Positions 1,013-55,369 of a DNA stretch of 64,000 bases are shown in pieces. Within the stretch, counting starts at the first letter, position 1. Every line of letters begins with the position of its first letter. Under the pieces are notes generated by a model, which was not told the origin of the DNA, did not search any database, and saw nothing but the letters and a program-made list of their open reading frames with translations. The stretch lies in IMG/VR virus record IMGVR_UViG_3300045988_024527, positions 29,796 through 93,795 of that record. The stretch is one strand, 5' to 3'. A program made the position numbers and the translations under genes. Origin of the DNA: a virus (Duplodnaviria; Heunggongvirae; Uroviricota; Caudoviricetes).

Positions 1013-1342
1013 TTAATCTGCCAACCTTAAATTAAAATTAACACCAAATTTTTCACATACTTCCAACATATACTCAAGGGAAACATTCCCAGTGAGGTGG
1101 ATTATGTTGGATACACGAGCCTGAGAGATACCACAAATTTTAGCAACTTGCTCTTGAGAAAGACCTCTGGATTTAATCTCTCTCTTAAAACGATGTGCAA
1201 CGAAGTCTCTCATTTCGTCTACATCCATTGGACAAATATAACTCTCCATTTCAGCCTCTCTGTCAGCCTCCCAATCATCTTGTGGGGCATAAGGGTCAAA
1301 AACCTCATTCATCTTTCTTCTTCCGTTTGCGTGAAGTGTCAA
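1013..1342 (-). CDS. putative HTH DNA-binding protein
   Basis: helix-turn-helix-like segment LSQEQVAKICGISQARVSNI. Confidence 0.45.
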   Translation of the reverse strand: MTLHANGRRKMNEVFDPYAPQDDWEADREAEMESYICPMDVDEMRDFVAHRFKREIKSRGLSQEQVAKICGISQARVSNIIHLTGNVSLEYMLEVCEKFGVNFNLRLAD

Positions 1343-1902: not shown

Positions 1903-2289
1903 AATGACCTCAAAGTTATATTAAATCTTGTATTACGTTGAGTATAAAAATAAGCTATAACACCTGACTTGTCAACAGATTTTATAGCTTATTTGGCAGA
2001 TTTTTTATAAGGCTACTGCCATCCTTCCATACCAAGCCCTGCCGAACCGAACCATGCTTTGCCATACCGGACAATACCTGACTAGACATCACTTAAAAAT
2101 CCTCTTAGAAGACTCTTAAGTGATGTAATCGAATTTTTATGTAGTTTCGATTAACTACCCATACCAAGCCTAACCTGACCGCACCAAACTTTACAACACC
2201 ACACCATACCTGACCATAACAAACCTCATTAAAAGACCCTGTTTAAAGACCTTTTAAAAAGGAGCCTCCGAAGAGGCTACCTAGTCAAC
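1903..2289. repeat. repeat-rich intergenic region (copy 1) with hairpin and A/C-rich short repeats
   Basis: shares hairpin CATCACTTAA-N19-TTAAGTGATG, CTCATTAAAAGACCCT..TTTAAAGACCTTTTAAAAAGG and CCATACCAAGCC-type repeats with 3336-3730. Confidence 0.7.
2087..2125 (-). promoter_or_regulatory. conserved stem-loop (10 bp perfect inverted repeat)
   Basis: catcacttaa...ttaagtgatg; near-identical copy at 3627-3665. Confidence 0.6.
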
Positions 2290-2730
2290 TTAGAAAGGTT
2301 TTCTACGTTGCTTGTTAATGTTAGCTTTCATAGCAGCTAAATGGTTTTGCTGTTCAATCAGTCGTGAACGTTCTTGATGACTAAGTGCCATAGTGTTCAC
2401 ATTCTCAATTGCTTGAGTGGCTTGTTTTAAAGCACGACCAATCTTACCAGACATTTTACGTTTTGCAATAGTTGCTTGATGTTTAGGTTCAACCACACGA
2501 TAACCAACACCCATTGAAGCAACCAGATAAATCTTCTCTTCTTTAAGAAGTTTCTCAATAAACTTCTCAAGTCGGTTTAGACGTGTAAGTGCATAAGCCT
2601 TCATTTCATCTTCGTACTTAACAATGTCACCTTGATAAGTTGGCTTCACAATACCTAAGAAGGTGTCCATCTCAGAATGTGATACAGTGTCACCGTAACT
2701 AAACTTTGCTGCTAATGCTTTTGTATTCAT
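2290..2730 (-). CDS. hypothetical protein
   Basis: 146 aa ORF. Confidence 0.5.
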   Translation of the reverse strand: MNTKALAAKFSYGDTVSHSEMDTFLGIVKPTYQGDIVKYEDEMKAYALTRLNRLEKFIEKLLKEEKIYLVASMGVGYRVVEPKHQATIAKRKMSGKIGRALKQATQAIENVNTMALSHQERSRLIEQQNHLAAMKANINKQRRKPF

Positions 2731-2732: not shown

Positions 2733-3730
<998 letters not shown>

Positions 3731-6072: not shown

Positions 6073-6123
6073 AAGCCCTCCTATACAAGATATAGTATAA
6101 GGTACTCTTCCCTGAGCACCTTG

Positions 6124-6657
6124 TCAACTTAGTTTTGCAAACTCTCCGTGGAGTTTAATAGCAGCTTCACAGTAAGCTTTATAGGCTTCTTCAGGTGTGT
6201 CATGGTGACCTAAAAACATCTTCTTACCTTTATAACTTATCTGTGCGACCCACTTACCGGACTTCTTCTTAAGACTTACACCCTTGTACCCAGATTTATT
6301 GGTGACTGGTTTACCTTTATTCCAAGCACTTTGAAAATCATCTGCTTCCCTTAAGTTTACAATCCTGTTGTCAAGCGAGTCTCCGTTGATATGGTCAATG
6401 ATACCTTTTGGCATCTTGCCATACACGTAAAGCCATGCGAGTCTGTGTGCTTTATGTGCTTTCTTGTCAAAATAGATACTAATCTGTTTATGACCACTTG
6501 AATCAGTCTGGATATTACCTGCCACCTTTCCTGCATAATTACTGTTAAAAACACTAACAGCTCTTGATTTACCTTCTCTACGAAGCCAAGTAAAGACCCC
6601 TGTTTCGGGGTCATAGTGCAGCAGCTCCTTTAAACGTTTTTGTAAAATTAAATCCAT
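6124..6657 (-). CDS. HNH homing endonuclease with AP2 DNA-binding domain
   Basis: YDPETGVFTW N-terminus, HNH core AHRLAWLY..IDHINGDSLDNRIVNLRE, AP2-like GYKGVS..KWVAQI; paralogs at 16217 and 29784. Confidence 0.8.
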   Translation of the reverse strand: MDLILQKRLKELLHYDPETGVFTWLRREGKSRAVSVFNSNYAGKVAGNIQTDSSGHKQISIYFDKKAHKAHRLAWLYVYGKMPKGIIDHINGDSLDNRIVNLREADDFQSAWNKGKPVTNKSGYKGVSLKKKSGKWVAQISYKGKKMFLGHHDTPEEAYKAYCEAAIKLHGEFAKLS

Positions 6658-6660: not shown

Positions 6661-9390
6661 TCAATGTACCTCATACCAGCTCTTACCAACCTTTGCTGTA
6701 CCAGTTACAAGTGTTTCTTTCCTCAAACCTAAGTTTTTTGAAGCTTGTCCATACATCCAGTCAGCAATTGCTTTCATATCCTGTGTCATACCCTCTGGAC
6801 ATTCCCAACTATTTTCATCGTGATATGCCAGAAGTAACCTTGCTCCGATAGCTGGTTTTCGAGCATTCAGTTTTGTCAGGCCATCTTCACAGGCTTTTCT
6901 TGCTGCTAGGTTGATGGCCTCATTCTGAATCTGTGCTTCCGAACTCATCAGGAGGTAGTTCAGTAGTTTATGTGGAGATTTGCACCATATCCATGCTCCA
7001 GCGACCCTGATATAACCACCTTTAGCAATTGAAGAATTCTTCCCAAAAACCTCTTCCAGAGCCTTTTTAGACGCCTTAAAATCGGCTTCTAAGCTATCAA
7101 GTAACTTCTTAATCTTTGGCAGACGCATATAGTAAGTTTGTTTAGTCAATGCACCTTCTTCCGTAGATGATGCCTTGATAGTTTTTGCAAACTTCTCGTC
7201 TCCGGCTCCAAATAACAGGGCGTAGATGCCATTTTTGCTCTTCTTACGGCCTTTTGTAATCTCGTGAAGAAGTTCCTCATCCTGTGTCTCCCTACAACGA
7301 ACAATATCTTCTTCCTTGTTCAGACCAAAGTAAATACTGTTCAGTGTATGCGCATCAGTCCCTGTGTAGACTTCATAGAGGTCGTTCTCAGCATCATAAC
7401 GAAGATACTTGTCAGTTTCTGGATTAAGATACTTATTGAGATGCTTGCAATAGTATCTGCCATCCTCTTGCTTAGTGAACTCTACCGACTCTTTACCCTC
7501 AGTTACTGCTTTAGTGAAGTCTTCATCACCCATAAAGTTACAAAGAAGAACTAGCTGTGCAGAGTTCTGGTCAACTGAAACAATGTTAGTCCCTTCCTCA
7601 CAAATCCAAACCTCCCTCATAGGTGCTCCATAGACAGCAGCACCAGACGGTACGTTTACAATACCATATTGTGTCATACGTCCAGTTGAAGTACCAAACA
7701 CCATTGCACCAGCACTAAGGCGACCATCTGGACGAATCTGGTTCAACCAACCTTTTTCATCATCCTTTGAGTTCTCAATAGTTCTGCGTCTGTGCATCAA
7801 AGTATAGTACTTAGCAATCTTCTGTCCAAGCTCACCTTCAATCGTATCATAAGATGATTCAGTAAGTTTTGGTGAAGTACGGATTAAGCAAGGTTCAAGC
7901 AAATCTGTGTACTTCTTCACAGACCAGTTATGCTCAATGTACTGTACACCTTCATGTTCAACATAACTCAAACCACACCGCTCGACCATTTCCTGCCACT
8001 TAGGATGCTTTGTAATCATCTTTTTATTGTCTTTGAAACGACAAACTTTGACAGGGCGACCATCTGAGTCTTTCTTGTAGTTCCAGTCATCTGGAATCCA
8101 ACCAACTGATTTCAAGTAGTCTTTAACAACTGCTACCTGAGTCATACGAGAAACTTCAAACTCAATTGGTGTATATGGTGCATCAATCAAACCTGTGTAG
8201 CGACTTGACTCAAGTTCAAAGTGGTTAACAACATGGCTGTTATAGTACTTCACAGTTTTGACTGTTTTTACTGGCTTCCAGTCTTTGCATTTCTTACCAA
8301 TCTTTGCATTCAACTCATTGCAAATTGCACGAGCATCCTTCATTGCTACAAAGCCTTCCTTGTACTCTTCACCAGTTACAGAGTTGGTTGGTGTATAGCA
8401 ATTTCTCTTTTCAATGTTAAAAATCTTTGTAGTTGGCTTACCAAATGGTTTGATTTCGTATGTCTGCATCTCGCCATTACGTACCTGCTGACGATACTTT
8501 GTCTTAGGGTACTTGGTAATTCTTTTCAGTCCATCTGCATGACCAAATGTTTCAACATACTCATTCCAAGCTTTTGCAAACTCTTCTCCAGTGACTTTAC
8601 CTTTGGTCTTAATAGTTGGAGGAAGATGTGGTTCAACCTCTGAAGCAAGCTCATTAGTCAATTTGTCAAGTTCCTTCACATGGAACTCCATAAGCTCTTT
8701 ATCAGCTTTCCAGCCATTGATAGCTTGTTGACTCATCCAGAAAGATGTTTCTTTAGCTCGCATATAGGTTTCATAAGTATCTATGCCACACTTCTTAAGC
8801 TTGAGATACTCATTATCAAGTGCCCGTTTAGCTTTGGCGTTAATACGGATGTCTTCTACAACACGAGTGAAGATTTCTGCATTCCATACACCCCAATGCT
8901 CAATCTCTGGTTTACGAACACCAACACGAGCACCCCATGCAGCCAAACCATGAGCACCTTTATAACCCTTCGGAGTTGGTCTATCCATCCACTGAACACG
9001 AGACTGGATAAGAGAATCCTGAAAGAAATTACTCCACGGTTTACACTTTGGATTATCAAAGTTCCATAAATCAGGTGCAATGTGATTGAAAACCCACCAG
9101 TCATAACCGAGGCCGTTATGGATACAAAGTCGTTTTGCCTTTAACGCAAACTCAACACCTTCACGTAAACTACCCTTAATGTACTTGGTATACTTGTGAC
9201 CGAGGATAGGCTCATCTGTAAAGACCCATACAGGTGGCTCTTCATCGTCAGATTTATAGTCTGCGAAAGCCATTACGTGCACTTTAGTGAACTCAAGGAG
9301 TAAACCATCAGTTTCTGTATCACCAACTAAATGTAAGTTTTTAAAATCTACGTTTTCCATTTTTACTCCCTCTAAAATCATTAACCTCAT
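6661..9390 (-). CDS. DNA polymerase, family A, with 3'-5' proofreading exonuclease
   Basis: Exo I motif VGDTETDGLL; Pol motif C YHDE; motif B-like KKSKNGIYALLFGAG; 909 aa. Confidence 0.9.
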   Translation of the reverse strand: MRLMILEGVKMENVDFKNLHLVGDTETDGLLLEFTKVHVMAFADYKSDDEEPPVWVFTDEPILGHKYTKYIKGSLREGVEFALKAKRLCIHNGLGYDWWVFNHIAPDLWNFDNPKCKPWSNFFQDSLIQSRVQWMDRPTPKGYKGAHGLAAWGARVGVRKPEIEHWGVWNAEIFTRVVEDIRINAKAKRALDNEYLKLKKCGIDTYETYMRAKETSFWMSQQAINGWKADKELMEFHVKELDKLTNELASEVEPHLPPTIKTKGKVTGEEFAKAWNEYVETFGHADGLKRITKYPKTKYRQQVRNGEMQTYEIKPFGKPTTKIFNIEKRNCYTPTNSVTGEEYKEGFVAMKDARAICNELNAKIGKKCKDWKPVKTVKTVKYYNSHVVNHFELESSRYTGLIDAPYTPIEFEVSRMTQVAVVKDYLKSVGWIPDDWNYKKDSDGRPVKVCRFKDNKKMITKHPKWQEMVERCGLSYVEHEGVQYIEHNWSVKKYTDLLEPCLIRTSPKLTESSYDTIEGELGQKIAKYYTLMHRRRTIENSKDDEKGWLNQIRPDGRLSAGAMVFGTSTGRMTQYGIVNVPSGAAVYGAPMREVWICEEGTNIVSVDQNSAQLVLLCNFMGDEDFTKAVTEGKESVEFTKQEDGRYYCKHLNKYLNPETDKYLRYDAENDLYEVYTGTDAHTLNSIYFGLNKEEDIVRCRETQDEELLHEITKGRKKSKNGIYALLFGAGDEKFAKTIKASSTEEGALTKQTYYMRLPKIKKLLDSLEADFKASKKALEEVFGKNSSIAKGGYIRVAGAWIWCKSPHKLLNYLLMSSEAQIQNEAINLAARKACEDGLTKLNARKPAIGARLLLAYHDENSWECPEGMTQDMKAIADWMYGQASKNLGLRKETLVTGTAKVGKSWYEVH

Positions 9391-9430
9391 ACATTACTGC
9401 AAAAAATTATAAAAAGCAAGTTGACAATGC

Positions 9431-9443
9431 ACTTGACAAGGTG
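9431..9443 (+). promoter_or_regulatory. conserved 13-mer ACTTGACAAGGTG (promoter-associated motif)
   Basis: same 12-13-mer at 25920-25931 and 55230-55242, each at the start of a plus-strand gene block; tandem TTGACA boxes. Confidence 0.45.
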
Positions 9444-9617
9444 TTAATCTTTGCGAAGTGGGTTTTTACTTAAAAGGTTACTTAACAGTTTAACTATACA
9501 GATACTTTAAAACTCTTAAAAGATTATTTAATAGCTTTTAAAAAGCTTTAAAGTATAACGTATAGAATACGTTAAGATAAAAGATTAAAACTTAATAGTT
9601 ACTTAAAAGAGGCTTAC

Positions 9618-10040
9618 ATGCAGAAAATGTTTGTTCACCCAGACATAGCTGACTTTGTTAGAGCTTTGCAGAAGTTGGAAGAACTTGACATTGCTGCTCA
9701 ACGGGAATATGCTCACCATCACAGGAGGATGGTTGATATACAACATGAAATAGAGTTGTCTGAAAACTATGAAGATGACTTAAAATGCTCTGTATTTGAG
9801 CATATGAAAGATGTTGCTACAGCGAGACGCAAAGCTAAAGACACAGTTGCTTTACTAGATTCTCTTAAAAAGAGGTTGCAAAGTGGTACAGACCTGTGTA
9901 ATCTAGCGTCACTGATTAACGATGTTGAAACTTCTTGGGATAGGCACTATTATCCACGTTCTGAAAAGACACTTGACTTTTCTTCATCCGAAAACTTAAA
10001 ATGTTCTAGAAAGAAACTTAACCAACTGAGAGAGAAATAA
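9618..10040 (+). CDS. hypothetical protein
   Basis: 140 aa ORF with RBS. Confidence 0.5.
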   Translation: MQKMFVHPDIADFVRALQKLEELDIAAQREYAHHHRRMVDIQHEIELSENYEDDLKCSVFEHMKDVATARRKAKDTVALLDSLKKRLQSGTDLCNLASLINDVETSWDRHYYPRSEKTLDFSSSENLKCSRKKLNQLREK

Positions 10041-10041
10041 T

Positions 10042-10842
10042 ATGAATATCGATGTAGAAAAGATGCTTGAAGAGAAAGGTGTTGATGAAGCATTCTTAAT
10101 CAATGCCGTAGAAAGCATGGCTATGATTCTTCGTGGGAACAACTACACAGAACAGTTTATGCCTGCAAGCTACAACTTGCCTGAAGACAAGTCTGATAAC
10201 GGTGCTTTTGCAGAACAGGTTAATATGATGTTGACAGACACTACACTTGCTCTGGCATCTATTGCGGTTGGTGTTGATGCACTTGCTGAGTTCATTTTTT
10301 ATGAAATGCAAAAGAATGACTATATCAGGATGTCAGACGAAGATAAGGAACTGTTGCTGACTAAGGACGCTGATTTCATTATTGATACGCTTATCTCATC
10401 AACGAGTGCTGTAATGGCTGCTCTTGAGAAGCGAATGGAAGAGAAGTTGTCACGATATGAAAAACTTGATTGGGGTGTAGAAGAACTAAGCCCACGAATC
10501 AAAGAGATTATACAGCAAACTAAAGATTCTTTGGAAGAAGCTGTTGAAAATGACTCTGTAGCTGATATAGAACCACTTCAGGTGAAAGTTGCACTGATGA
10601 TTCCAGCTATCTCTACGATGATGAATATCGTTGCACTAATCCAGCTTTCACAGATGATGGGTGTGAGTATGGAGTTCATTGAGGAAATGACTGGTGGTGT
10701 TAGTATGCAAGCAATCAATGATGTTTTGGTGAACATTGGTGCTTCAATCATTGAAGAGAAACTACGCATTAACTTCGGTGATGATTTTGTGAAGCAAATC
10801 TCAGCTATGGCTGAAAAAGAGTATGCTGACCAACTGCACTAA
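10042..10842 (+). CDS. hypothetical protein
   Basis: 266 aa ORF. Confidence 0.5.
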   Translation: MNIDVEKMLEEKGVDEAFLINAVESMAMILRGNNYTEQFMPASYNLPEDKSDNGAFAEQVNMMLTDTTLALASIAVGVDALAEFIFYEMQKNDYIRMSDEDKELLLTKDADFIIDTLISSTSAVMAALEKRMEEKLSRYEKLDWGVEELSPRIKEIIQQTKDSLEEAVENDSVADIEPLQVKVALMIPAISTMMNIVALIQLSQMMGVSMEFIEEMTGGVSMQAINDVLVNIGASIIEEKLRINFGDDFVKQISAMAEKEYADQLH

Positions 10843-10903
10843 GTCTTTATAAATCTTACAAGCCTCCTTAGTTGGGGGCTTTTTAGTAATTAATGGAGAT
10901 AAA

Positions 10904-11647
10904 ATGAGTAATATTATAGCATTTACTGGAAAGGCGCGTTCTGGAAAAGACACCTCATGTTCTATTGTGAAGAACATCTTAGAGGATGAGCACGGCTACA
11001 ATGTTGCAGTAATGGCCTTTGCAGACAACCTTAAACTATCTGCATCAAAGATATTTGACCTAACTTGGAATGACCTGTATGGTGAAACTAAAGAGACTCC
11101 GCAAGTATTTGACTTATCATATCATGAACTGATGTTTAAAGTTACGGAAGCTATGGAGTTCACCTTCAGGGATGAACGTTACCATATGGACTTCAAGCTT
11201 ATGTCAGAGTTAACCGGACGATTAATCATGGAGCTTAAGAAGGTTGCTAAACCGACTCTATTGACACGTCTGGGGTTTAGCAAGAAGTATAAATTCTCAT
11301 CAAGACAAATTCAACAGATTTGGGGTACTGAAGTTATCCGTAAAGTTATGGGTGACAAATTCTGGGCTAAAGACCTTGAAAAAAGAATGGTTAGATTCCA
11401 TGAAATGTGCTCACTTAGAAATCAATATGGTTTTGTCTTAATCAGTGATTTAAGATTTGACTCTGAAGCTGAATGGCTGAGTAGATTTGCACACCAAACT
11501 ATTGAAGTAAAAAGAGACAATGTGGACAAAGTTTCATCACATGTTTCAGAAAATGGGATTTCTACAAAATATGAGCGTGACATTATTCATAATAATGGTA
11601 CTCTTGCAGACCTTGAGAACAAGCTAAGAGCCATCATTAAAGTTTAA
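10904..11647 (+). CDS. deoxynucleoside monophosphate kinase
   Basis: P-loop GKARSGKDT near N-terminus, size about 250 aa as in T4 gp1-type dNMP kinases. Confidence 0.65.
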   Translation: MSNIIAFTGKARSGKDTSCSIVKNILEDEHGYNVAVMAFADNLKLSASKIFDLTWNDLYGETKETPQVFDLSYHELMFKVTEAMEFTFRDERYHMDFKLMSELTGRLIMELKKVAKPTLLTRLGFSKKYKFSSRQIQQIWGTEVIRKVMGDKFWAKDLEKRMVRFHEMCSLRNQYGFVLISDLRFDSEAEWLSRFAHQTIEVKRDNVDKVSSHVSENGISTKYERDIIHNNGTLADLENKLRAIIKV

Positions 11648-11655
11648 AAGAGAGA

Positions 11656-11856
11656 ATGAAGATGAGAGTAAAAGACAATTTTAAAGTTATTGACCACCGT
11701 TTAGTGGAACTCTCATCTCTTTCCAATGAGGTAATGATTGAACGTCTTAAGAGAGTTGAATCACGAAGGAAAGAGATTGCAGATGAAATTCATGAACTGG
11801 ACAAGATTGAAAATGGATTGAAGGCAGAACTACAACGAAGAGGTGCTAATGTCTAA
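11656..11856 (+). CDS. hypothetical protein
   Basis: 66 aa coiled-coil-like ORF. Confidence 0.4.
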   Translation: MKMRVKDNFKVIDHRLVELSSLSNEVMIERLKRVESRRKEIADEIHELDKIENGLKAELQRRGANV

Positions 11857-13834
11857 AGGTCGTAAATTGAAAGAGGCTGGTCAGTTTATTGGTCATTGTG
11901 CATGTCCACGTTGTGGTTCATCAGATGCTGGTTCAATCTATCATCATGACGATGATTCTTATTCGATGACTTGCTTTAGCTGTAACAAAGGTTTCCCAGA
12001 GTGGGATTTTGATAAAGGACAAATCGTGAGCACTTATTATACTGGTTCAGATAATAAAAACCGTACTTTCCGTGGAATGGATTTAGAAGATGTCAAAGAA
12101 AACCTTGAAGCAATGGACTTGAAAGACAGGAAAATTCCTGCAAAAGTCCTTGAACGTTTAGGTATCAAGGTTGACATTGACAGTGACGGTGAAATTGACG
12201 CACATTTCTACCCAACTTACAAACGCAATGAAGATGGCAAGCTAGAACATGTTGGCTACCGTGTTCGTCACCGTTACCCAGAAGACCATCCAAAAGAACA
12301 CCTACGAGGTAAGCTAAAAGACTTCTCAGGTGGTGTTGGAGACATTAAAGGTGAACTGGCAATGTTCGGTTCATGGATTGCTCCAGAAGGTGGTAACCGT
12401 CTATTCATCTGGGAAGGTGAGATGGAATGTGCGACAGCAATCTATATGACTTCTCTTGCGATTAAAGATAAGTCTCGTCGTAAGAATTACTGTCACGTAT
12501 CTGTTCCATCAGGTGCAAACATTAAGTCTATCAAAGACAACTATCAGTACATCACATCATTTGATGAGATTTACTTGTGCTTTGATAACGATGAAGCAGG
12601 TGCTAAAGCTACCAAAGAGGCTGCTGGTATCCTCCCTATTGAGAAGGTTCGTTTATTCCAGTATCCAGAAGGTGTAAAAGACCTTAACGAATGGTGGACA
12701 AAGTTCTATAAAGAGAAAGATACAGTTCTGGAAGGATTTAAGCAGCGTATCTACAATGCACCTCGTTACTGTCCTGCTGGTATCAAGAACTTCGCAGATG
12801 GTTTTGAGGCAATGAAGAATCGTGGTCAGATTCCATTGATACCTTTCCCAGAATCTTTCGGAGATTTGAACAGGCTGACTTATGGCGGTTACGGTTTAGG
12901 TGAGATTACAACTCTGGCAGCACCATCTTCAGTGGGTAAATCAGCATACACTCGTGAAATGATTTACACAGCTTGGAAAGATACCGATTACAATATTGGT
13001 GTAATTCCTGTAGAAGATACTTATGAAGAGTTGATGGAGATGCTCTGTGCAATCCACCTGAGCAAGCAGATTTCTGAGATTCCTTATGACGAACGTGATT
13101 GGGATGAATTGAAGGAAGCACACGCAGAACTGTCTAAAGGTCGTCGTATCCACATCGTAGACCATCAAGGGGCAATTGACCAAGATAACTTGCTGGAATT
13201 TGTTGACTATCTTGTTAACAGCTTGGACTGTAAGATTATTATTCTTGACCCTATTACGTTGGCTCTGTCACGTTCAGATACTGATGAAGAGGAAGTTTTA
13301 TCTGAGCTATTGCGTCGTTGTAAACGCTACCAGTATGCACAAGTGAACGTCTGTCACGTTCGTAAGAGTGCAGGTGGTCAGAAGGCTAACTCTGAAGGTG
13401 GGGATATCTCTGAAGAGGATATTAAAGGCTCTGGTGCGTATTTCCAGATTTCTATGAACAACATTCTGTTAATGCGTAACAAGGTTGACCCAGACCCTGT
13501 TAAGAAAAACTTGACAAAAATCAAGTTAACTAAATGTCGTCGTCACGGTAAGTCAACGGGTATTGCTGGTCATACTTGGTACAATCCAGATACAGGACGC
13601 CTCATCAAAGCATCTGGTTGTGGGGTAGACATTGATGGTGCAGCAGAAAATATTCGCCAACAGTTTGGTATTGGTGAAGCTGAAGACCATTACGATGACT
13701 CTTTGCCACATTATGAGGATGAAGTGTTTGACCGTGAGACTGGTGAAGTCTATACTGAAGAGCAGCGTCAAAGCTCAACGATTCCACCTGTATTAAGTGA
13801 GGATGCAGATGACTGCCCATTCGAAACTGAGTGA
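11843..13834 (+). CDS. bifunctional DNA primase/helicase
   Basis: N-terminal zinc ribbon CPRCGS..CFSC, TOPRIM-like EGEMECA/DNDEAG, Walker A APSSVGKS DnaB-like helicase domain. Confidence 0.85.
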   Translation: MLMSKGRKLKEAGQFIGHCACPRCGSSDAGSIYHHDDDSYSMTCFSCNKGFPEWDFDKGQIVSTYYTGSDNKNRTFRGMDLEDVKENLEAMDLKDRKIPAKVLERLGIKVDIDSDGEIDAHFYPTYKRNEDGKLEHVGYRVRHRYPEDHPKEHLRGKLKDFSGGVGDIKGELAMFGSWIAPEGGNRLFIWEGEMECATAIYMTSLAIKDKSRRKNYCHVSVPSGANIKSIKDNYQYITSFDEIYLCFDNDEAGAKATKEAAGILPIEKVRLFQYPEGVKDLNEWWTKFYKEKDTVLEGFKQRIYNAPRYCPAGIKNFADGFEAMKNRGQIPLIPFPESFGDLNRLTYGGYGLGEITTLAAPSSVGKSAYTREMIYTAWKDTDYNIGVIPVEDTYEELMEMLCAIHLSKQISEIPYDERDWDELKEAHAELSKGRRIHIVDHQGAIDQDNLLEFVDYLVNSLDCKIIILDPITLALSRSDTDEEEVLSELLRRCKRYQYAQVNVCHVRKSAGGQKANSEGGDISEEDIKGSGAYFQISMNNILLMRNKVDPDPVKKNLTKIKLTKCRRHGKSTGIAGHTWYNPDTGRLIKASGCGVDIDGAAENIRQQFGIGEAEDHYDDSLPHYEDEVFDRETGEVYTEEQRQSSTIPPVLSEDADDCPFETE

Positions 13835-23030: not shown

Positions 23031-24227
23031 ATGAACAAAGTACAGATTATTAAAAAGAATGGCTCACTTGAAGAACCTGATATCAAAAAAGTTTTAGCAG
23101 CAGTAACTAAGTCAGCTAACAGAGTTGGATATAAAGAACTCCCACCAGATGTTACCCAAGCTCTTGAGTCAGCATTTATGAGGATTCTGGTAAAGTCCAC
23201 TAAGCAGAATAATTTACTCATCTCAGTCAATGATATCCACAGCATTGTTGAGGGTGCTTTGGCAGAAGTCAATCACGAGATTTATGAGTCTTACTCAACA
23301 TATAGAAATTACCGGAAAGAGGTTGCTCAAAATTGGGATGAGCTTTACCAAAAGACTAGAGACACGCTCTTCTTAGGTGACCGTGAAAACGCTAACTTTG
23401 ACAGCAGTTTAATTTCTACAAAAGGTTCAATTATTCGTGGTTATCTGACTAAAGAAATCTTTAAACAGTACCATTTAACACCAGAGGAACTTGAAGCCAT
23501 TGAAAAAGGGTTTATCTATATCCATGATTTAAGAGACCTAATTTTTGGTGGTATCAACTGTTGCCTGTTTGACATTGGTAAAGTACTGAAAGGTGGCTTT
23601 GAAATGTCTGGCATCGAATACTGTGAACCGAAGTCTGTGCTGTCAGCCTTACAGGTTATTGGTGATGTAGTTCTTTCAGCAACTGCACAGCAATTTGGTG
23701 GCTTTACTTTAGCAGAGATTGATAAGGTACTTGTACCGTATGCTAAGAAGTCTCTACGCTATCATGCTGAGAAAGCAGCATCTTACGGTATTCCTAAAGA
23801 ACATTACCACAATTATGTCATGGAGCAGCTACAGATTGAACTGACTCAAGGTTTCCAGTCACTTGAAATGAAACTAAACACTGTACCTTGTAGTCGTGGG
23901 GATTTTGCATTTACAACTTTGACATTTGGGTTACTTGACTCAGATATGTCTAATGAAGATAATCGACTGCAATACATGATTGCAAGTACTCTCCTAGATG
24001 TTCGTATGAATGGACAAGGTAAGAGCAAGAAGCCTGTTGTATTCCCTAAACTGGTTTATATTTATGACCAGAAGAGACACGATGAGAATATCTGTCAAGG
24101 ACACCTGTACAGTAAAGCCATTGAGTGTTGCTCTAAAGCGATGTATCCAGATTTCTTAAGTGTATCTGGTCATGGTGCTGTAGCAGAGGCTTTTGAGCGT
24201 TCTGGTAAGGTTATTTCACCGATGGGT
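23031..24227 (+). CDS. nrdD: anaerobic ribonucleoside-triphosphate reductase, exon 1
   Basis: ends ...SPMG then in-frame TAA; C-terminal half resumes in frame at 24970. Confidence 0.75.
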
Positions 24228-24969
24228 TAACAGGCTCTATAGCTCATCTAAAACGTGCCTAAACAGGGAAACTCTACAGATGTAGACAATCCTGTGCTAA
24301 ATGATGTACGATGTAAGAAACTATACAACATAGGAGTCTTACATGCCAAACTATCACGTCACTGAAGATGGAAAAGTCTTTAGGGAAAATGGTGTAGAAC
24401 TTACGCAGTGGAAATCCAACACTGGGTATATGAAAGTGAGGTTTTACGGTAAGAAGAATCGTGACATGTATGTCCACAGGTTAGTTGCTGAGAAATATGT
24501 ACCTAACCCGAATAATCTTCCAATTGTAAAACATAAGGACGATAACAAACTAAATAACCACGCATCTAACTTAGAATGGGGTACTCATTCTGAGAATGCT
24601 AAAGAGGGTTATGAGAACGGATGTTACAAGTTCCACAAGCGTTCATATGCCGTGAAAGCCACACACAAAGTGACAAAGGAAGTTATTGTTGCTAAGTCAA
24701 TACGAGAGTTATCCAATATACTTGGACACAATCGCAAGACCATCTCTTCAATATTGAAGGGTGTAAAAGAGCATAATAACTTCGAATATGAGTTTGAATA
24801 CATCTAAATGCCGAACGACTAACCGTGATGAATGTAGCGGTGTAGGGTCAAGCGACTCGAAATGGTACGCTACTTAGAAATAAGTAGAAGATATAGTCTG
24901 GACTTACTGGCGACAGTAAGCAGCTTGAATAAAGCGGGGTAAGCTTAGCGAACTTACCTGAACAACAAG
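24228..24969 (+). mobile_element. putative group I self-splicing intron in nrdD
   Basis: 742 bp insert splitting one conserved protein; stop codon at 5' junction after U; ends in G; contains HNH ORF; core-like segments GTAGGGTCAAGCGACTCGAAA and AGATATAGTC. Confidence 0.55.
24343..24807 (+). CDS. HNH homing endonuclease (intron-encoded)
   Basis: VHRLVAEKY..HKDDNKLNNHASNLEWGTHSEN HNH motif. Confidence 0.7.
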   Translation: MPNYHVTEDGKVFRENGVELTQWKSNTGYMKVRFYGKKNRDMYVHRLVAEKYVPNPNNLPIVKHKDDNKLNNHASNLEWGTHSENAKEGYENGCYKFHKRSYAVKATHKVTKEVIVAKSIRELSNILGHNRKTISSILKGVKEHNNFEYEFEYI

Positions 24970-25917
24970 TGTAGAGCGTTTTTATCACCATATCTTAACG
25001 ATAATGGGGAAGAGTTCTATGTAGGTCGTGCTAACATTGGTGCTGTGTCTTTGAACTTACCAATGATTTACCAGTATTCTAAAGAGAATGGTTTAGATTT
25101 CTGGAAAGAGCTTGATAAGTACCTAGAGATGATTCGTAGTTTCCACAAGAAACGCTATGAAATGATTGCCAATATGCCAGCAAGTTCTAACCCTCTTGCA
25201 TTTACACAAGGTGGTCTGTACAAAGGAACTAAGAAGCCTACTGACAAGGTTGGTTGGGATATTGTGAAGTCCTTCACAGCTTCTTTTGGGGTTACTGCGC
25301 TTGATGAGCTATCTGTTCTTGCTGAAGGTAAACGACTTCATGAAGTTGGAAGCTATAGTTTTGCATATGATGTTCTGGCATACATCAATATGAAAACTGA
25401 AGAGTTTAAGAACGAAGATGGCTTCTTGTATGCGGTATATGGCACTCCAGCAGAATCACTTTGTGGAACTCAGTTAAAACAGTTCAGAGATATGTTTGGC
25501 GTTATTAAAGGTGTCTCTGACAAGGAATACTTTACAAACAGTTTCCATATGAATGTTGCAGCAGACATCTCACCATTTGAGAAGCAGGACTTAGAAGAGC
25601 CATTCTTCCATATCTGTAGAGGTGGTAGAATCCAGTATGTAAGGGTAGCTAACCCAGAAAACTTACCAGCACTTAAAAGTTGTATTACAAGAGGGATGTT
25701 GAAGGGTTTTTATCAGGGACTTAACTTTGACTTAGCAATCTGTGAACATTGTGGTAACAGACCAAAAGCTGATGTTGAAGAATGTGAGGTTTGTCATTCA
25801 CATGATATCTCTGTGATTAACAGGGTGTGCGGATACTTATCATTCACAAAAATTAAAGGCCAGTCTCGAATGAATGACGCTAAGATGGCAGAAATTAAGG
25901 ATAGGATTTCTATGTAA
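24970..25917 (+). CDS. nrdD: anaerobic ribonucleoside-triphosphate reductase, exon 2
   Basis: open frame from 24949; GRANIGAVSLNLP matches conserved NrdD region; C-terminal CEHCG..CEVCHSHD cysteine cluster and glycyl-radical region. Confidence 0.7.
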   Translation, partial: CRAFLSPYLNDNGEEFYVGRANIGAVSLNLPMIYQYSKENGLDFWKELDKYLEMIRSFHKKRYEMIANMPASSNPLAFTQGGLYKGTKKPTDKVGWDIVKSFTASFGVTALDELSVLAEGKRLHEVGSYSFAYDVLAYINMKTEEFKNEDGFLYAVYGTPAESLCGTQLKQFRDMFGVIKGVSDKEYFTNSFHMNVAADISPFEKQDLEEPFFHICRGGRIQYVRVANPENLPALKSCITRGMLKGFYQGLNFDLAICEHCGNRPKADVEECEVCHSHDISVINRVCGYLSFTKIKGQSRMNDAKMAEIKDRISM

Positions 25918-26070
25918 AACTTGACAAGGTGATGTGGGTCTTGATAGGCTTACATCACCTTTTTATTGGATGTTATATATGGCAGAGAGTATTATTGGGT
26001 TGTTCATAGGTTCTGTCTTACTAGGGTTCTTTTTAGGACTCTCTTATTGTGAGTTGAGAGGCAAGTTAAA

Positions 26071-40770: not shown

Positions 40771-40819
40771 TTGCATCAGACGGGCAAGCAAGCCCACTTC
40801 CTAAACTGGAGATTCTAAA

Positions 40820-41026
40820 ATGTTATATCAACGCCAATTGATGATTGTAGACAATAACAAGACTAAAAAGCGCCGCTTCTTTATGCTTATTTGTGATGTA
40901 TGGCAACGTATCTCAGAAAAGGATTTTGATAAATATGTTGATACATCAATCAGGTCTGATTGTTACTTGACAAATCGCACAAGACAATTTACAAGACATA
41001 CGGCAATTTACTATTACGATAAATAA
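40820..41026 (+). CDS. small hypothetical protein (cassette array gene 1)
   Basis: preceded by CCTAAACTGGAGATTCTAAAATG leader. Confidence 0.5.
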   Translation: MLYQRQLMIVDNNKTKKRRFFMLICDVWQRISEKDFDKYVDTSIRSDCYLTNRTRQFTRHTAIYYYDK

Positions 41027-41037
41027 AAGTACTTTAC

Positions 41038-41112
41038 AAGGGGCTTAAAAGTTGATATCTTAAGCCCCAGATAAAGAGCTTTACTACTAAGTCCTAAACT
41101 GGAGATTCTAAA
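41038..41112 (+). repeat. cassette boundary type B (stem-loop + conserved RBS leader)
   Basis: GGGGCTTA..TAAGCCCC hairpin + AGATAAAGAGCTTTAC + CTAAACTGGAGATTCTAAAATG; copies at 42889 and 43681; variant at 41640. Confidence 0.75.
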
Positions 41113-41625: not shown

Positions 41626-41639
41626 ATAGATTTCTTTAC

Positions 41640-41717
41640 ACGGGGTTATCAAGCTGATAAGATAGCCCCAGATAAAGAGCTTTATTCAAATCAACCCTTA
41701 AACTAGGAGACTCTAAA
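41640..41717 (+). repeat. cassette boundary type B variant
   Basis: GGGG..CCCC hairpin + AGATAAAGAGCTTTA + CCTTAAACTAGGAGACTCTAAAATG. Confidence 0.65.
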
Positions 41718-45263: not shown

Positions 45264-45396
45264 TCAATAACTTACAAAAAACTTTTAAAAAAGTATTGAC
45301 AATACCCCTTGACATTGGTAACTTTGTTCGAGGGGGTTTATCTAAAAGGGATTCACTTAAAAGATTCTTTATAGATAAGCTTAAAAAATTGCTTGC

Positions 45397-54977: not shown

Positions 54978-55369
54978 AGATAATCCTCTTGTCTTCTGTA
55001 ATTTTGAAAGAACAGGTACAGACCAATTTCAGAGGATGAATAGTAGATTAACTCTACCCTTTTTGATTCCTTACAGTGATTGGTATTCTTACCTTTCTTC
55101 GGTTTATTTGATTTTCTCATTAAGTCTCCTTTGTAGAACAAGGCAGACCTACAGCTTTAAGTAAGATGGTACAGTAATCCATACAACAAGTCAAGAACTA
55201 TTGCAAGTTAAAAAAGTTGTTGACAAAGTACTTGACAAGGTGTAGGCTTATAAATACTTAGAAGATAACTTAAAAGGTTCCTCTAAAAAGGCTATTTAAA
55301 CAGATATCTTTCTGGATATCTATCTTTTATCTTAAAAGCCTTTTAAGAGGTCTTATAAGAGGCATACCA

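What the first reader, a model, noticed from the sequence alone, without database searches (positions are those of the whole stretch)
9421..9443. Conserved ACTTGACAAGGTG motif marks the start of three plus-strand gene blocks
The same 12-13-mer, often preceded by a second TTGACA, occurs at 9431, 25920 and 55230, each in an intergenic gap before a run of plus-strand genes. It may be a phage-specific promoter class or regulator site.
Basis: seen in the sequence. Interest (0 to 1): 0.4.

Follow-up and report, generated by a model that had tools for sequence, protein, structure and literature searches.

The report
Host-type promoter boxes in Felix-O1-like phage
The repeated 13-mer is real and conserved, but it is the ordinary host-RNA-polymerase "-35 box" (TTGACA) plus neighbouring bases of four promoter cassettes in a Felix O1-type phage; the one unexplained twist is a second, invariant TTGACA inside the spacer of two of these promoters.

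Summary
The window is a Felix O1-like myovirus (Felixounavirus). The core TTGACAAGGTG has a fourth copy on the minus strand (6127-6117). That is 4 copies against 0.06 expected, all intergenic and all pointing at the downstream genes.

Only two copies sit at the start of a gene block (the divergent junctions at 9.4 and 55.2 kb). The other two lie inside blocks, right after the stop codons of nrdD and of an HNH gene.

Variation among about 30 related genomes in three genera suggests sigma-70-type promoters of two designs:
- **Sites 2 and 4:** the motif's TTGACA is the -35 box, 17-18 bp from a minimal -10 (TAnnnT). AAGGTG is the 5' arm of a hairpin; at site 2 this is a terminator kept by a compensatory change.
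- **Sites 1 and 3:** the -35 box is the upstream TTGACA, and the -10 starts 0-1 nt after the motif. The motif's own TTGACA lies in the spacer yet never varies.

The AGGTG extension varies at sites 2 and 3, so the 13-mer is not one recognition unit. This is ordinary in kind. The invariant in-spacer hexamer is unexplained and could be an operator. No start site has been mapped.

The parts
9431..9443 (+). Motif copy 1 (ACTTGACAAGGTG). It lies inside the spacer of the rightward promoter of the pol/gp97 divergent region.
   Evidence: Exact match. The core is unchanged in 13 of 14 haplotypes from three genera; one has TTGACAGGGTG.
9421..9426 (+). Upstream TTGACA, proposed -35 hexamer of the rightward promoter (here called P97). 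It is preceded by the invariant A-rich stretch AAAAAGCAAG.
   Evidence: Invariant in 14 haplotypes. It lies 18 bp upstream of TAATCT. The spacing and the pattern of variation fit a sigma-70 promoter.
9433..9438 (+). Second TTGACA, 12 bp downstream of the first, about -24 to -19 relative to the predicted start. Function unknown.
   Evidence: Invariant in 14 haplotypes, while the 4 nt between the two hexamers (TGCA) vary freely. No -10-like hexamer lies 16-18 bp downstream of it.
9442..9450 (+). Proposed extended -10 element TGtTAATCT of P97. Predicted start is about 9456-9458.
   Evidence: The variants are TGtTAATCT, TGgTAGTCT and TGtTAGTCT. Substitutions fall only at -13 and -10; TG, T-12, A-11 and T-7 are fixed. 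The discriminator varies, and the conserved block AGTGGGTTTT begins at the predicted +1.
9391..9419 (-). Proposed leftward DNA-polymerase promoter, back to back with P97: -35 TTGCTT (9419-9414), 17-bp spacer, -10 TAATGT (9396-9391).
   Evidence: The plus-strand AAGCAA is invariant. The -10 variants are TAATGT, TAGGGT, TAAGGT and TAGTGT, so T, A and the final T are fixed (read). The pol start is most likely 9360 (MENVDF), not 9390.
25919..25931 (+). Motif copy 2, starting 2 nt after the nrdD stop codon. TTGACA at 25921-25926 is a candidate -35 box; AAGGTG is the base of the hairpin's 5' arm.
   Evidence: Natural variants are TTGACATGGTG, TTGACGAGGTG, TTGACAATGTG, TTGACAAGGCG and TTGACAAGGTA.
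25926..25966 (+). Intrinsic terminator: a 16-bp stem (25926-25961) with a 4-nt loop, followed by a T run. A candidate -10 TAGGCT (25945-25950) lies at the start of its 3' arm, 18 bp from TTGACA.
   Evidence: Terminator scan. Folding energy -24.1 kcal/mol, z = -6.6. 97.9% of cells paired in 12 haplotypes, one compensatory G-C to A-U change, six pairs with wobble-compatible one-sided changes, and 36-58% paired when the partner is slid. Annotated as a terminator in phage Mordin.
55230..55242 (+). Motif copy 3, inside the spacer of the rightward promoter of the gp40/gp41 divergent region.
   Evidence: Exact match. TTGACAA is invariant in 11 haplotypes, but the extension varies: GGTG, CGTG, GCTG, GATG, GGTA.
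55220..55225 (+). Upstream TTGACA, proposed -35 hexamer of the gp41 promoter. This is the hexamer of Whichard's P41 in Felix O1.
   Evidence: Invariant in 11 haplotypes, while all six bases that follow it vary. PMC3185647 lists P41 as TTGACA(N15)TATAGG.
55243..55248 (+). Proposed -10 hexamer TAGGCT of the gp41 promoter, 17 bp from 55220-55225 and directly after the motif. Predicted start is about 55255-55256.
   Evidence: The variants TAGGCT, TAGCCT, TAAGTT and TAGTGT keep T-12, A-11 and T-7 and change the middle three bases. The discriminator varies, and the invariant block ACTTAGAAGAT begins at the predicted +1.
6117..6127 (-). TTGACA (6127-6122) contains the TGA stop codon of the HNH gene and is a candidate -35 box for the block of genes that follows.
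   Evidence: It is conserved in SUSP2 and Mordin. In Mordin, which lacks the HNH gene, homology starts exactly at TTGACA.
6099..6122 (-). Hairpin AAGGTGCTC / GAGTACCTT with a 6-nt loop. The proposed -10 TACCTT (6104-6099) forms the end of the 3' arm, 17 bp from TTGACA. Predicted start is about 6092; the next gene's ATG is at 6072.
   Evidence: Fold. The loop position varies G/T while the stem is fixed. The -10 variants TACCTT and TACCAT keep T, A and the final T. The alternative TATACT is often TATACA, which lacks T-7. phiEa21-4 has TTGACA-N17-TATCTT at the homologous place.
45296..45324 (+). A third promoter of the same tandem design but without AGGTG: TTGACA-N7-TTGACA-N4-TAACTT (17 bp from the first hexamer to TAACTT).
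   Evidence: Conserved in Felix O1 and Mordin. phiEa21-4 has TTGACA-N6-TTGACA-N5-TAAAGT at 16494.
1013..1342 (-). XRE/Cro-type helix-turn-helix protein (Felix O1 gp85 homologue). It is the only recognisable phage transcription regulator in the window and is a candidate partner for the in-spacer hexamer. No link is shown.
   Evidence: Pfam HTH_3 E = 6e-10; PHROG 1373 'transcriptional regulator'. Present in Felix O1, SUSP2 and Mordin; no tblastn hit in phiEa21-4.

Best explanation
The motif is not a single recognition element. It is the consensus -35 hexamer of the host sigma-70 RNA polymerase (TTGACA) with lineage-specific neighbouring bases. It sits in four conserved promoter cassettes of a Felix O1-like phage, and these come in two designs.

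**Design A (site 2 at 25921 and site 4 at 6127, minus strand).** The motif's TTGACA is the -35 box. A minimal -10 (TAGGCT or TACCTT, i.e. TAnnnT) follows after 18 or 17 bp. AAGGTG is the 5' arm of a hairpin that encloses the spacer and the -10. The cassette therefore ends the upstream message (nrdD; pol/HNH) and restarts transcription. This is a composite terminator-promoter, like the PeSL cassettes of T4-type phages.

**Design B (site 1 at 9431 and site 3 at 55230, the two divergent control regions).** The working -35 box is the TTGACA 12 bp upstream. The -10 (TGtTAATCT or TAGGCT) starts 1 or 0 nt after the motif. The motif's own TTGACA therefore lies in the spacer, about -24 to -19. At site 1 the motif's terminal TG is the extended -10 TG.

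Shown here: the motif's presence, its non-random occurrence, its intergenic and co-oriented position, its conservation across three genera, the position-specific pattern of variation, and the site 2 hairpin with a compensatory change. Inferred: that host sigma-70 polymerase starts transcription at about 9457, 25957 and 55255 on the plus strand and about 6092 on the minus strand. Unknown: why the in-spacer hexamer is invariant.
For: - **Identity of the genome.** The window is 95-99% identical to Felixounavirus genomes.
- **Occurrence.** There are 4 exact TTGACAAGGTG copies against 0.06 expected. All TTGACAAGG copies are intergenic and co-oriented with downstream genes.
- **Conservation.** The same four sites exist in Felix O1, SUSP2 (Suspvirus) and Mordin (Mooglevirus).
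- **Footprints at sites 1 and 3** (14 and 11 haplotypes). The -35 hexamers are invariant. The -10 keeps T-12, A-11 and T-7 while the middle bases change (site 3: TAGGCT, TAGCCT, TAAGTT, TAGTGT; site 1: TGnTA(A/G)TCT). The discriminators vary. Conservation resumes at the predicted +1.
- **Site 4.** TACCTT and TACCAT keep T, A and the final T. The rival -10 TATACT is often TATACA.
- **Site 2.** The hairpin gives 97.9% paired cells, one compensatory change and six wobble-compatible changes, with z = -6.6. It is annotated as a terminator in Mordin.
- **Distant relative.** phiEa21-4 has plain TTGACA-N17-TATCTT and TTGACA-N17-TACATT at the homologous places, without AGGTG.
- **Family context.** About 20 further sigma-70-like promoters in the window share the A-rich upstream stretch plus TTGACA. 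Other cassettes here place a G-rich stem directly after the -35 box: TTGACAAGGGGCTTCAAAGCCCCTTAGAAT at 35023 and the CTTTACAAGGGGCTTA...TAAGCCCC repeats at 41-44 kb.
- **Not one unit.** The AGGTG half varies naturally at sites 2 and 3.
- **Literature.** Felix O1 encodes no RNA polymerase or known specificity factor, and P41 was already predicted from the same upstream hexamer (PMC3185647). The PeSL concept is described in PMC2839356 and PMC4122927.
Against: - No transcription start has been mapped for any Felix O1-like phage that I could find.
- All four -10 hexamers match the consensus at only 3 of 6 positions. The standard scan found no plus-strand promoter at the motif sites, and BPROM did not list them for UAB_Phi87.
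- The model does not explain why the second TTGACA(A) in the spacer is invariant at sites 1 and 3 while its flanks vary. It also does not explain why the same tandem design recurs at 45296 and in phiEa21-4.
- At site 4 the whole 17-bp spacer is nearly invariant. This needs the hairpin, or some bound factor, as an extra explanation.
- The RT-PCR timing in PMC3185647 places ORFs 41, 42, 96-99 and 101 at a 25-min maximum, not 5 min. The assay is coarse.
- Only three closely related genera carry the motif, so the comparative power is limited.
Confidence: 0.7

Rival explanations
1. Operator model. The invariant TTGACAA hexamers are binding sites for a phage-encoded DNA-binding protein. These could be the tandem pair TTGACAA-N5-TTGACAA (which is also a near-palindrome, TTGnCAA-N5-TTGnCAA) or the full TTGACAAGGTG. 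The obvious candidate protein is the XRE/Cro-type HTH at 1013-1342 (gp85 homologue). By sitting over the -35 box and spacer it would shut off, or otherwise time, the promoters of the replication and nucleotide-metabolism genes and the tRNA block. This adds to the promoter reading rather than replacing it.
For: - The second hexamer is invariant in 14 and 11 haplotypes while the adjacent spacer bases vary (9 of the 10 other spacer positions vary at site 3).
- No usable -10 lies downstream of it, so it is constrained for some reason other than acting as a -35 box.
- The tandem design recurs at a third promoter and in phiEa21-4.
- The promoters that carry it have the weakest -10 hexamers in the genome, which suggests regulated promoters.
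- An HTH_3 regulator is encoded in the genome. It is present in the three genera that carry the 11-mer and gave no tblastn hit in phiEa21-4, which lacks the 11-mer.
Against: - There is no binding data and no known specificity for this protein family member.
- The co-occurrence rests on a single contrast, and phiEa21-4 still has one tandem TTGACA promoter although no gp85 homologue was found.
- The AGGTG half varies at sites 2 and 3, so the 11-mer as a whole is not a strict operator.
- Sites 2 and 4 have only one hexamer.
- The half-site spacing of 12 bp is somewhat long for a typical XRE dimer (general knowledge).
Confidence: 0.2
2. Relic model. The shared 11-13-mer reflects common descent of mobile promoter/terminator cassettes spread by recombination, as for PeSLs, including -35 duplications from recombinational slippage. 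On this view the AAGGTG extension and the second hexamer have no function of their own at sites 1 and 3.
For: - The genome holds several families of repeated promoter-hairpin cassettes with nearly the same start: AAAGTACTTTACAAGGGGC at 41026, 42886 and 43681, against AAAGTACTTGACAAGGTGT at site 3.
- Sites 1 and 3 share a 35-nt repeat at 83% identity (family D15).
- HNH endonuclease genes of two unrelated families are inserted exactly 5' of the motif at site 4 and, in some phages, at site 2.
- PMC4122927 describes degraded PeSLs with multiple mis-spaced -35/-10 copies.
Against: A functionless relic should decay. Instead, the second hexamer is invariant across three genera while bases 1-6 nt away vary freely. 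The tandem spacing of 12-13 bp is also kept at independent promoters. Descent can explain the origin of the similarity but not its maintenance.
Confidence: 0.15
3. Phage-specific promoter class. TTGACAAGGTG would be read as a unit by a phage-encoded or phage-modified polymerase, in the way the T4 MotA box or T7-type promoters are.
For: An 11-mer longer than a -35 hexamer is shared by four sites. These promoters have poor -10 hexamers. How Felix O1 times its transcription is unknown (PMC3185647).
Against: - The distance from the motif to the nearest TAnnnT is 0-1 nt at sites 1 and 3 but 12-13 nt at sites 2 and 4, so the motif has no fixed position relative to a start site.
- The AGGTG half varies.
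- phiEa21-4 lacks the extension at homologous promoters.
- No sigma, anti-sigma, MotA/AsiA-like protein or RNA polymerase was recognisable in the 35 window ORFs scanned or reported in PMC3185647.
- The T4-late-like TATAAATA at 55249-55256 is not conserved in SUSP2 or Mordin.
Confidence: 0.05
4. Replication-origin model. The promoter together with the long, conserved, AT-rich region downstream at the two divergent junctions (9451-9617 and 55249-55369) would act as a transcription-activated replication origin. This would resemble the T7 primary origin, which has tandem promoters followed by an AT-rich stretch.
For: - The phage has a T7-type replisome: a family A polymerase, a gp4-like primase-helicase and an exonuclease.
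- Both junctions have tandem hexamers followed by 120-170 nt of AT-rich non-coding sequence that is very conserved across genera and contains palindromes and repeated CTTAAAAG.
- Gene orientation and GC skew switch at both junctions.
Against: GC skew simply follows transcription direction, so it adds nothing. Sites 2 and 4 carry the motif without such a region. The AT-rich segments are equally well explained as 5' leaders. There is no replication data.
Confidence: 0.05

Closest known systems
Sigma-70-dependent early promoters of virulent and temperate coliphages (T4 early, T5, lambda PL/PR)
   Same: Consensus TTGACA -35 box, 17-18 bp spacer, a -10 keeping T-12, A-11 and T-7, and an A-rich stretch upstream at sites 1 and 3. 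They lie in front of replication and nucleotide-metabolism genes and a tRNA cluster and would be read by unmodified host polymerase.
   Different: The -10 hexamers are minimal (3 of 6). Two of the promoters, plus a third at 45296, carry a second perfect TTGACA inside the spacer. I know of no described counterpart for that, and it is unexplained.
PeSL (promoter-early stem-loop) composite terminator/promoter cassettes of T4-type phages (Arbiol et al. 2010, PMC2839356; Comeau et al. 2014, PMC4122927)
   Same: A short conserved intergenic cassette combining a stem-loop with a sigma-70-like promoter, followed by a Shine-Dalgarno sequence and start codon. It is repeated in the genome and found at junctions where mobile ORFs (here HNH genes) come and go.
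   Different: In PeSLs the stem-loop lies just upstream of the promoter. Here the stem starts one base after the -35 box and encloses the spacer and -10 (sites 2 and 4, 35023, and the 41-44 kb repeats). The phage family differs (Ounavirinae). A role in recombination was not tested. Sites 1 and 3 have no convincing stem.
Felix O1 promoter P41 (Whichard et al. 2010, PMC3185647)
   Same: Same upstream TTGACA at the gp40/gp41 junction (window 55220).
   Different: That paper paired it with TATAGG at 15 bp, a hexamer present only in Felix O1 itself. Variation among relatives supports TAGGCT at 17 bp instead. The paper found no promoter in the 96/97 junction, which carries the same design (site 1).
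Lambda CII / P22 C1-dependent promoters (direct repeats TTGC-N6-TTGC straddling the -35 region)
   Same: Direct repeats containing TTG, about one helical turn apart, over the -35 box and spacer of a promoter with a weak -10. This is a precedent for a regulator reading such repeats.
   Different: The period is 12 bp, not 10. The -35 box here is already perfect, so an activator is not obviously needed. The only HTH found is XRE-type; CII homology was not specifically searched for. This resemblance is from general knowledge; PMC4837284 mentions only the repeat.
T4 middle promoters (MotA box at -30 plus a sigma-70 -10)
   Different: The motif has no fixed distance to a -10. The box is the host consensus itself. 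No MotA/AsiA-like proteins were recognised.

Membership tests
Sigma-70 (housekeeping) promoter | -35 hexamer close to TTGACA | tested here: met
   6 of 6 at all sites, and invariant in 11-14 haplotypes at sites 1 and 3. There is one TTGACG variant at site 2.
Sigma-70 (housekeeping) promoter | -10 hexamer 16-18 bp downstream with T-12, A-11 and T-7 | tested here: met
   TAATCT (18 bp), TAGGCT (18), TAGGCT (17) and TACCTT (17). Each matches only 3 of 6, but T, A and the final T are fixed while the middle bases vary among relatives. At sites 1 and 3 this holds only when counted from the upstream hexamer.
Sigma-70 (housekeeping) promoter | Position upstream of, and co-oriented with, genes | tested here: met
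   All four copies are intergenic and co-oriented.
Sigma-70 (housekeeping) promoter | Transcription start about 7 nt after the -10; activity with sigma-70 holoenzyme | not testable with these tools
   No start-site data were found in the literature searched.
PeSL-type composite terminator-promoter cassette | Stem-loop physically joined to a sigma-70-like promoter | tested here: met
   Met at sites 2 and 4 only. Sites 1 and 3 gave z = -2.1 and +0.5, and the site 1 stem is weakened in Mordin. The geometry also differs from published PeSLs, where the stem lies upstream of the promoter (PMC4122927).
PeSL-type composite terminator-promoter cassette | Multiple similar copies at junctions of variable or mobile ORFs; mediates shuffling | tested here: inconclusive
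   HNH genes are inserted exactly 5' of the motif at site 4 and, in some phages, at site 2. Related cassettes repeat at 41-46 kb. Recombination through the cassettes was not demonstrated.
PeSL-type composite terminator-promoter cassette | Described in T4-type myoviruses | tested here: not met
   The host genome is a Felixounavirus (Ounavirinae).
Intrinsic (Rho-independent) terminator (site 2) | G+C-containing stem followed by a T run, with the stem kept in relatives | tested here: met
   16-bp stem followed by TTTTT. 97.9% of cells paired with one compensatory change.
Operator of an XRE/Cro-type repressor | Dyad-symmetric or repeated half-sites overlapping a promoter core | tested here: inconclusive
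   TTGACAA-N5-TTGACAA is a direct repeat and a near-palindrome lying over the -35 box and spacer. Sites 2 and 4 have a single hexamer.
Operator of an XRE/Cro-type repressor | Specific binding by a cognate protein | not testable with these tools
   The candidate HTH_3 protein is at 1013-1342. Co-occurrence with the 11-mer rests on one contrast.
Phage-specific (non-host) promoter class | A motif unlike the host consensus at a fixed distance from the start, with a cognate phage polymerase or sigma | tested here: not met
   The motif is the host -35 consensus. Its distance to the -10 is 0-1 nt or 12-13 nt depending on the site. No phage polymerase or sigma was recognised (PMC3185647).

The most novel reading that the evidence does not exclude
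The second, invariant TTGACA(A) hexamer lies about -24 to -19 inside the spacer of the promoters at the two divergent control regions, and of a third promoter at 45296. The most novel reading is that it is a dedicated control element. It could be an operator for the phage's XRE-type regulator. It could instead be a decoy -35 box that holds sigma-70 region 4 in a non-productive register. Either way it would time the switch from early to middle transcription in Felix O1-type phages, whose temporal control is unexplained.
Probability: 0.2. Interest if true: 0.5.

Novelty: new member of a known kind. Interest (0 to 1): 0.25.

Why it matters
Felix O1-type phages are widely used for Salmonella typing, detection and biocontrol, yet their transcription programme is essentially unmapped. 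The genome paper found no promoter in the polymerase/gp97 junction and called the divergent gp40/gp41 junction odd.

This analysis gives testable promoter assignments for the four main entry points into the replication, nucleotide-metabolism and tRNA genes. It corrects the register of the published P41 promoter. It also shows that two cassettes combine a terminator with a restart promoter. These assignments help in engineering such phages, for example in choosing where to place reporter genes.

Beyond that, the signal is an ordinary host-type promoter. Only the conserved hexamer inside the spacer is of wider interest.

Tried and rejected
- **Motif's TTGACA as the -35 box at sites 1 and 3.** No TAnnnT lies 16-18 bp downstream. 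Insertions in some lineages change the spacing to the next conserved block.
- **T4-late-type TATAAATA at 55249-55256.** It is not conserved in SUSP2 or Mordin.
- **TATACT as the -10 at site 4.** It is 22 bp from the -35 box and is often TATACA.
- **A perfect minus-strand TATAAT at 9404-9409 as the pol -10.** It is not conserved (TGAAAC, TGAAGA). TAATGT at 9396-9391 fits better.
- **The motif as a -35 box for minus-strand promoters (read as TTGTCA).** No -10 lies at the right distance (read).
- **Hairpins at sites 1 and 3.** Marginal or absent (z = -2.1 and +0.5), and the site 1 stem is weakened in Mordin.
- **Other sigma consensus sequences (sigma-32, sigma-E, sigma-54, sigma-28) and host factor boxes (FNR, NrdR, PhoB and others).** No fit on inspection; these comparisons were from memory only.
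- **The motif as the common target of one homing endonuclease.** The HNH genes next to sites 2 and 4 are unrelated.
- **Looking for intermediate relatives.** IMG/VR held only the same three genera, the Erwinia group at 61% polymerase identity, and distant hits at 24-45% polymerase identity.
- **Scanning IMG/VR for the tandem design.** Without a control this is not informative.
- **Literature.** No start-site or RNA-seq study of a Felix O1-like phage was found, and no paper contains TTGACAAGGTG in this context. The BPROM table for UAB_Phi87 does not list these promoters.
- **Early small ORFs and the genes next to the motif.** Thirty-five window ORFs were scanned. The 25 small ORFs of unknown role were all PHROG 'unknown function' apart from the HTH, and the remaining ten were endonuclease, NrdD and plasmid R-M genes.
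- **Weak match of the HTH to Pfam Sigma70_r4.** It scored 21.8 bits, below the 24.1 cutoff, and was treated as generic HTH similarity.
Full report
**What the window is.** Megablast of 8000-12000 and of 1-25000 finds more than 250 phage records at 90-99% identity. Nearly all are Felix O1-like myoviruses of Escherichia, Salmonella and Shigella (Felixounavirus). Laid against the annotated Felix O1 genome, the window runs from about 54 kb through the record's end and start to about 26 kb. Only positions 1 to about 60050 are phage; the rest is a small plasmid (see the last section).

**The observation.** ACTTGACAAGGTG is present exactly at 9431, 25919 and 55230 on the plus strand. The conserved core is the 11-mer TTGACAAGGTG. 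It has four exact copies against 0.06 expected from shuffles. All five TTGACAAGG copies are intergenic and point at the genes downstream, although 82% of the window is coding.

A second TTGACA lies 12 bp upstream at 9421 and at 55220 (2 matches against 0.03 expected) but not at 25919. Two copies sit in the two divergent intergenic regions: DNA polymerase against the gp97 homologue, and gp40 against gp41. The copy at 25919 is not at the start of a block. It begins two bases after the nrdD stop codon, in the middle of the long plus-strand block. The minus-strand copy contains the TGA stop codon of an HNH endonuclease gene.

**Conservation.** The same four sites exist in Felix O1, in SUSP2 (Suspvirus) and in Mordin (Mooglevirus). 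The Erwinia relative phiEa21-4 (Kolesnikvirus) has no copy of the 11-mer with at most one mismatch in an intergenic region. It carries plain promoters at the homologous places instead: TTGACA-N17-TATCTT after the polymerase gene and TTGACA-N17-TACATT in the polymerase junction. Whatever is specific to AGGTG is therefore confined to three closely related genera. A TTGACA-type promoter at these positions is older.

**Natural variation as a footprint.** I collected about 30 further genomes from IMG/VR around the polymerase gene, gp41 and the nrdD end and tabulated distinct haplotypes.

- *Site 3, 11 haplotypes.* The upstream TTGACA never varies. All six bases after it vary. The second TTGACAA never varies. 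The following GGTG varies (GGTG, CGTG, GCTG, GATG, GGTA). The next hexamer reads TAGGCT, TAGCCT, TAAGTT or TAGTGT. In that hexamer T, A and the final T are fixed and the three middle bases are free. This is what selection on a sigma-70 -10 element should look like, since A-11 and T-7 are its key bases (established knowledge). That hexamer is 17 bp from the upstream TTGACA. The next seven bases vary, including a one-base indel. An invariant block, ACTTAGAAGAT, then begins at the predicted start.
- *Site 1, 14 haplotypes.* The pattern is the same. The upstream TTGACA is invariant and the next four bases are free. CTTGACA is invariant. AGGTG is unchanged in 13 of the 14. Then comes TGtTAATCT, TGgTAGTCT or TGtTAGTCT. 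This reads as an extended -10 (TGn plus TAnnnT) 18 bp from the upstream hexamer, with changes only at -13 and -10. The conserved block AGTGGGTTTT starts at the predicted +1.

At both divergent junctions the working -35 box is therefore most likely the upstream hexamer.

On the other strand at site 1, the invariant AAGCAA next to the upstream hexamer reads as TTGCTT. It lies 17 bp from TAATGT, with variants TAGGGT, TAAGGT and TAGTGT. This looks like a back-to-back promoter for the polymerase gene. That gene's true start is probably 9360 (MENVDF) rather than 9390.

**Sites 2 and 4.** Here there is no upstream hexamer. The motif's own TTGACA is 18 bp from TAGGCT at site 2 and 17 bp from TACCTT at site 4. 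At site 4 the variants TACCTT and TACCAT keep T, A and the final T. The better-looking TATACT further on is often TATACA, which rules it out.

In Mordin the HNH gene is absent and the polymerase gene abuts the cassette. Homology with the other genera begins exactly at TTGACA and runs to the next start codon. In both sites AAGGTG is the 5' arm of a hairpin that starts one base into the spacer.

- *Site 2.* The stem has 16 pairs and is followed by a T run, so it is an intrinsic terminator. The folding energy is -24.1 kcal/mol with z = -6.6, and Mordin annotates it as a terminator. In 12 haplotypes 97.9% of cells pair. There is one compensatory change (AAGGTA with TACCTT) and six pairs with wobble-compatible changes. 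With the partner slid, only 36-58% pair. The motif itself varies here: TTGACATGGTG in five genomes, and also TTGACGAGGTG, TTGACAATGTG and TTGACAAGGCG.
- *Site 4.* The stem is AAGGTGCTC paired with GAGTACCTT. The only variable base lies in the loop.

Other cassettes in this genome use the same layout of a -35 box followed by a G-rich stem that encloses the spacer and -10. Examples are TTGACAAGGGGCTTCAAAGCCCCTTAGAAT between rIIA and rIIB, and the repeated CTTTACAAGGGGCTTA...TAAGCCCC units at 41-44 kb.

This layout resembles the composite terminator/promoter PeSL cassettes of T4-type phages (PMC2839356, PMC4122927). In PeSLs, however, the stem lies upstream of the promoter. As with PeSLs, mobile genes come and go at these cassettes. 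HNH genes of two unrelated families are inserted immediately 5' of the motif, at site 4 and, in some Felixounaviruses, at site 2.

**What the motif is.** The 13-mer is not one recognition element. Its invariant part is the host -35 consensus. Its AGGTG half is held for different reasons at different sites: a hairpin arm at sites 2 and 4, and the extended -10 TG at site 1. At site 3 it is not held at all. The similarity between sites is best explained by common descent of promoter cassettes. Sites 1 and 3 share a 35-nt repeat, and site 3 reads AAAGTACTTGACAAGGTG against AAAGTACTTTACAAGGGG in the 41-44 kb repeats.

A census with relaxed -10 criteria finds about 20 sigma-70-like promoters in the phage part of the window. 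Most have an A-rich stretch before TTGACA. The motif-bearing promoters and the third tandem promoter have the weakest -10 hexamers, at 3 of 6. That is why the standard scan and BPROM in a published relative did not call them.

Whichard et al. (PMC3185647) predicted P41 from the same upstream hexamer but paired it with TATAGG at 15 bp. That hexamer exists only in Felix O1 itself, and the comparative data favour the 17-bp register. The same paper found nothing in the 96/97 junction, which has the same design. It also states that Felix O1 has no polymerase or known specificity factor and that its temporal control is unknown. Its RT-PCR places the genes downstream of all four sites at a 25-min maximum, which is too coarse to discriminate.

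**What remains unexplained.** The second TTGACA(A) lies at about -24 to -19, where sigma-70 promoters normally show no sequence constraint. Yet it is invariant while its neighbours vary. At site 3, 9 of the other 10 spacer positions vary. It has no usable -10 of its own. The same tandem design occurs at 45296 (TTGACA-N7-TTGACA-N4-TAACTT) and once in phiEa21-4 (TTGACA-N6-TTGACA-N5-TAAAGT).

The pair TTGACAA-N5-TTGACAA is also a near-palindrome. A bound protein is the natural explanation. The only recognisable regulator is an XRE-type HTH protein at 1013-1342. It is present in the three genera with the 11-mer and gave no tblastn hit in phiEa21-4. Nothing links the two directly. The other 25 small ORFs of unknown role that I scanned, mostly early ORFs and the genes next to the motif, gave nothing. 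I rate the operator or decoy idea at about 0.2.

**Verdict.** These are promoter elements, but of the host type, not a phage-specific class, and only two mark the start of gene blocks. The finding is a new example of known kinds: sigma-70 phage promoters and composite terminator-promoters. Interest is low to moderate. It is useful for annotating and engineering Felix O1-type phages and offers one small open question. No start site has been mapped, so all start positions given here are predictions.

**Other observations.**
- Window 60058-64000 is not phage. It is a 3.8-kb ColE1-type E. coli plasmid carrying a HindIII-family restriction-modification system, read through more than once around.
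- nrdD is split by an HNH gene.
- The 46.3-48.1 kb non-coding region matches the published terminal repeat of a relative.

Noticed in passing
window 60058-64000: The last ~3.9 kb is not phage. It matches a 3,824-bp ColE1-type E. coli plasmid (NZ_AP027826.1) at 99.5% identity. The plasmid carries a HindIII-family restriction endonuclease (60996-61922, minus strand), a DNA methylase (60471-60995) and an Rfam RNAI hit at 63712-63813. GC is 49% against 39% elsewhere. The sequence runs more than once around the circle (60058-60177 repeats at 63885-64000). Phage homology stops at about 60010-60058. The window therefore joins two replicons, either as concatenated contigs or as a chimeric assembly.
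   Followed up: yes
window 23031-25917: nrdD is in two pieces: 23031-24230 (Pfam NRDD positions 1-250) and 25045-25917 (positions 283-560). An HNH_3 endonuclease ORF (24343-24807) lies between them. Felix O1 has one continuous nrdD. This is either a gene split by a free-standing homing endonuclease or an intron. No Rfam group I intron reached threshold.
   Followed up: partly
window 46330-48116: A 1.8-kb stretch without ORFs lies between the convergent gene blocks. It is rich in CTTAAAAG-like words. The part around 46925 matches the 'direct terminal repeat' printed for the relative UAB_Phi87 (PMC4837284, supplementary file 4). This is probably the physical end region of the genome.
   Followed up: partly
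window 9451-9617 and 55249-55369: The non-coding stretches between the predicted starts and the first genes are long (about 160 and 115 nt), AT-rich and more conserved across three genera than neighbouring coding sequence. They contain palindromes (CTTAAAAGcCTTTTAAG at 55331-55347, AGCTTTTAAAAAGCT at about 9533-9547, AACGTATAGAATACGTT) and share ACTTAAAAGGTT. The word CTTAAAAG is intergenic in 18 of its 28 copies, against 17.6% expected. Their function is unknown; a leader RNA, protein binding sites or a replication origin are all possible.
   Followed up: partly
window 40800-46100: A run of small ORFs of unknown function is separated by repeated cassettes of 40-100 nt. Each cassette has a TTTACA or TTGACA promoter embedded in a GGGGCTTA...TAAGCCCC stem, followed by CCTAAACTGGAGATTCTAAAAATG (ribosome site plus start codon). 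These are the direct repeats noted in the Felix O1 paper, and they look like PeSL-type shuffling cassettes.
   Followed up: partly
L071-L075 (about 1275-1850) versus window 25917-25921; window 6124-6657: Homing-endonuclease genes are inserted exactly between a stop codon and the TTGACAAGGTG cassette. A 188-aa HNH gene follows nrdD in some Felixounaviruses, with the last 11 nt (TATGTAAAAC) duplicated. An unrelated HNH_3+AP2 gene follows the polymerase gene in Felixounavirus and Suspvirus but not in Mooglevirus.
   Followed up: partly
window 2000-2290 and 3336-3730: Two non-coding stretches in the minus-strand block carry repeated CCATACC/ACCAAACC-type units and a shared 70-nt repeat ending in a CACTTAAAAA...CTCTTAAGTG palindrome (repeat families D8, D9 and D13). 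Not investigated.
   Followed up: no
window 9360-9390: The mechanical ORF for the DNA polymerase starts at 9390. Homologues and the ribosome site (GAGGGAG) point to 9360 (MENVDF). The proposed polymerase promoter would start transcription at about 9384, downstream of the 9390 ATG.
   Followed up: partly
window 1013-1342 (minus strand): The XRE-type HTH protein has an acidic ~50-residue N-terminal extension. It also gives a sub-threshold Pfam match to sigma-70 region 4 (21.8 bits, cutoff 24.1), the domain that reads TTGACA. This is probably generic HTH similarity.
   Followed up: no
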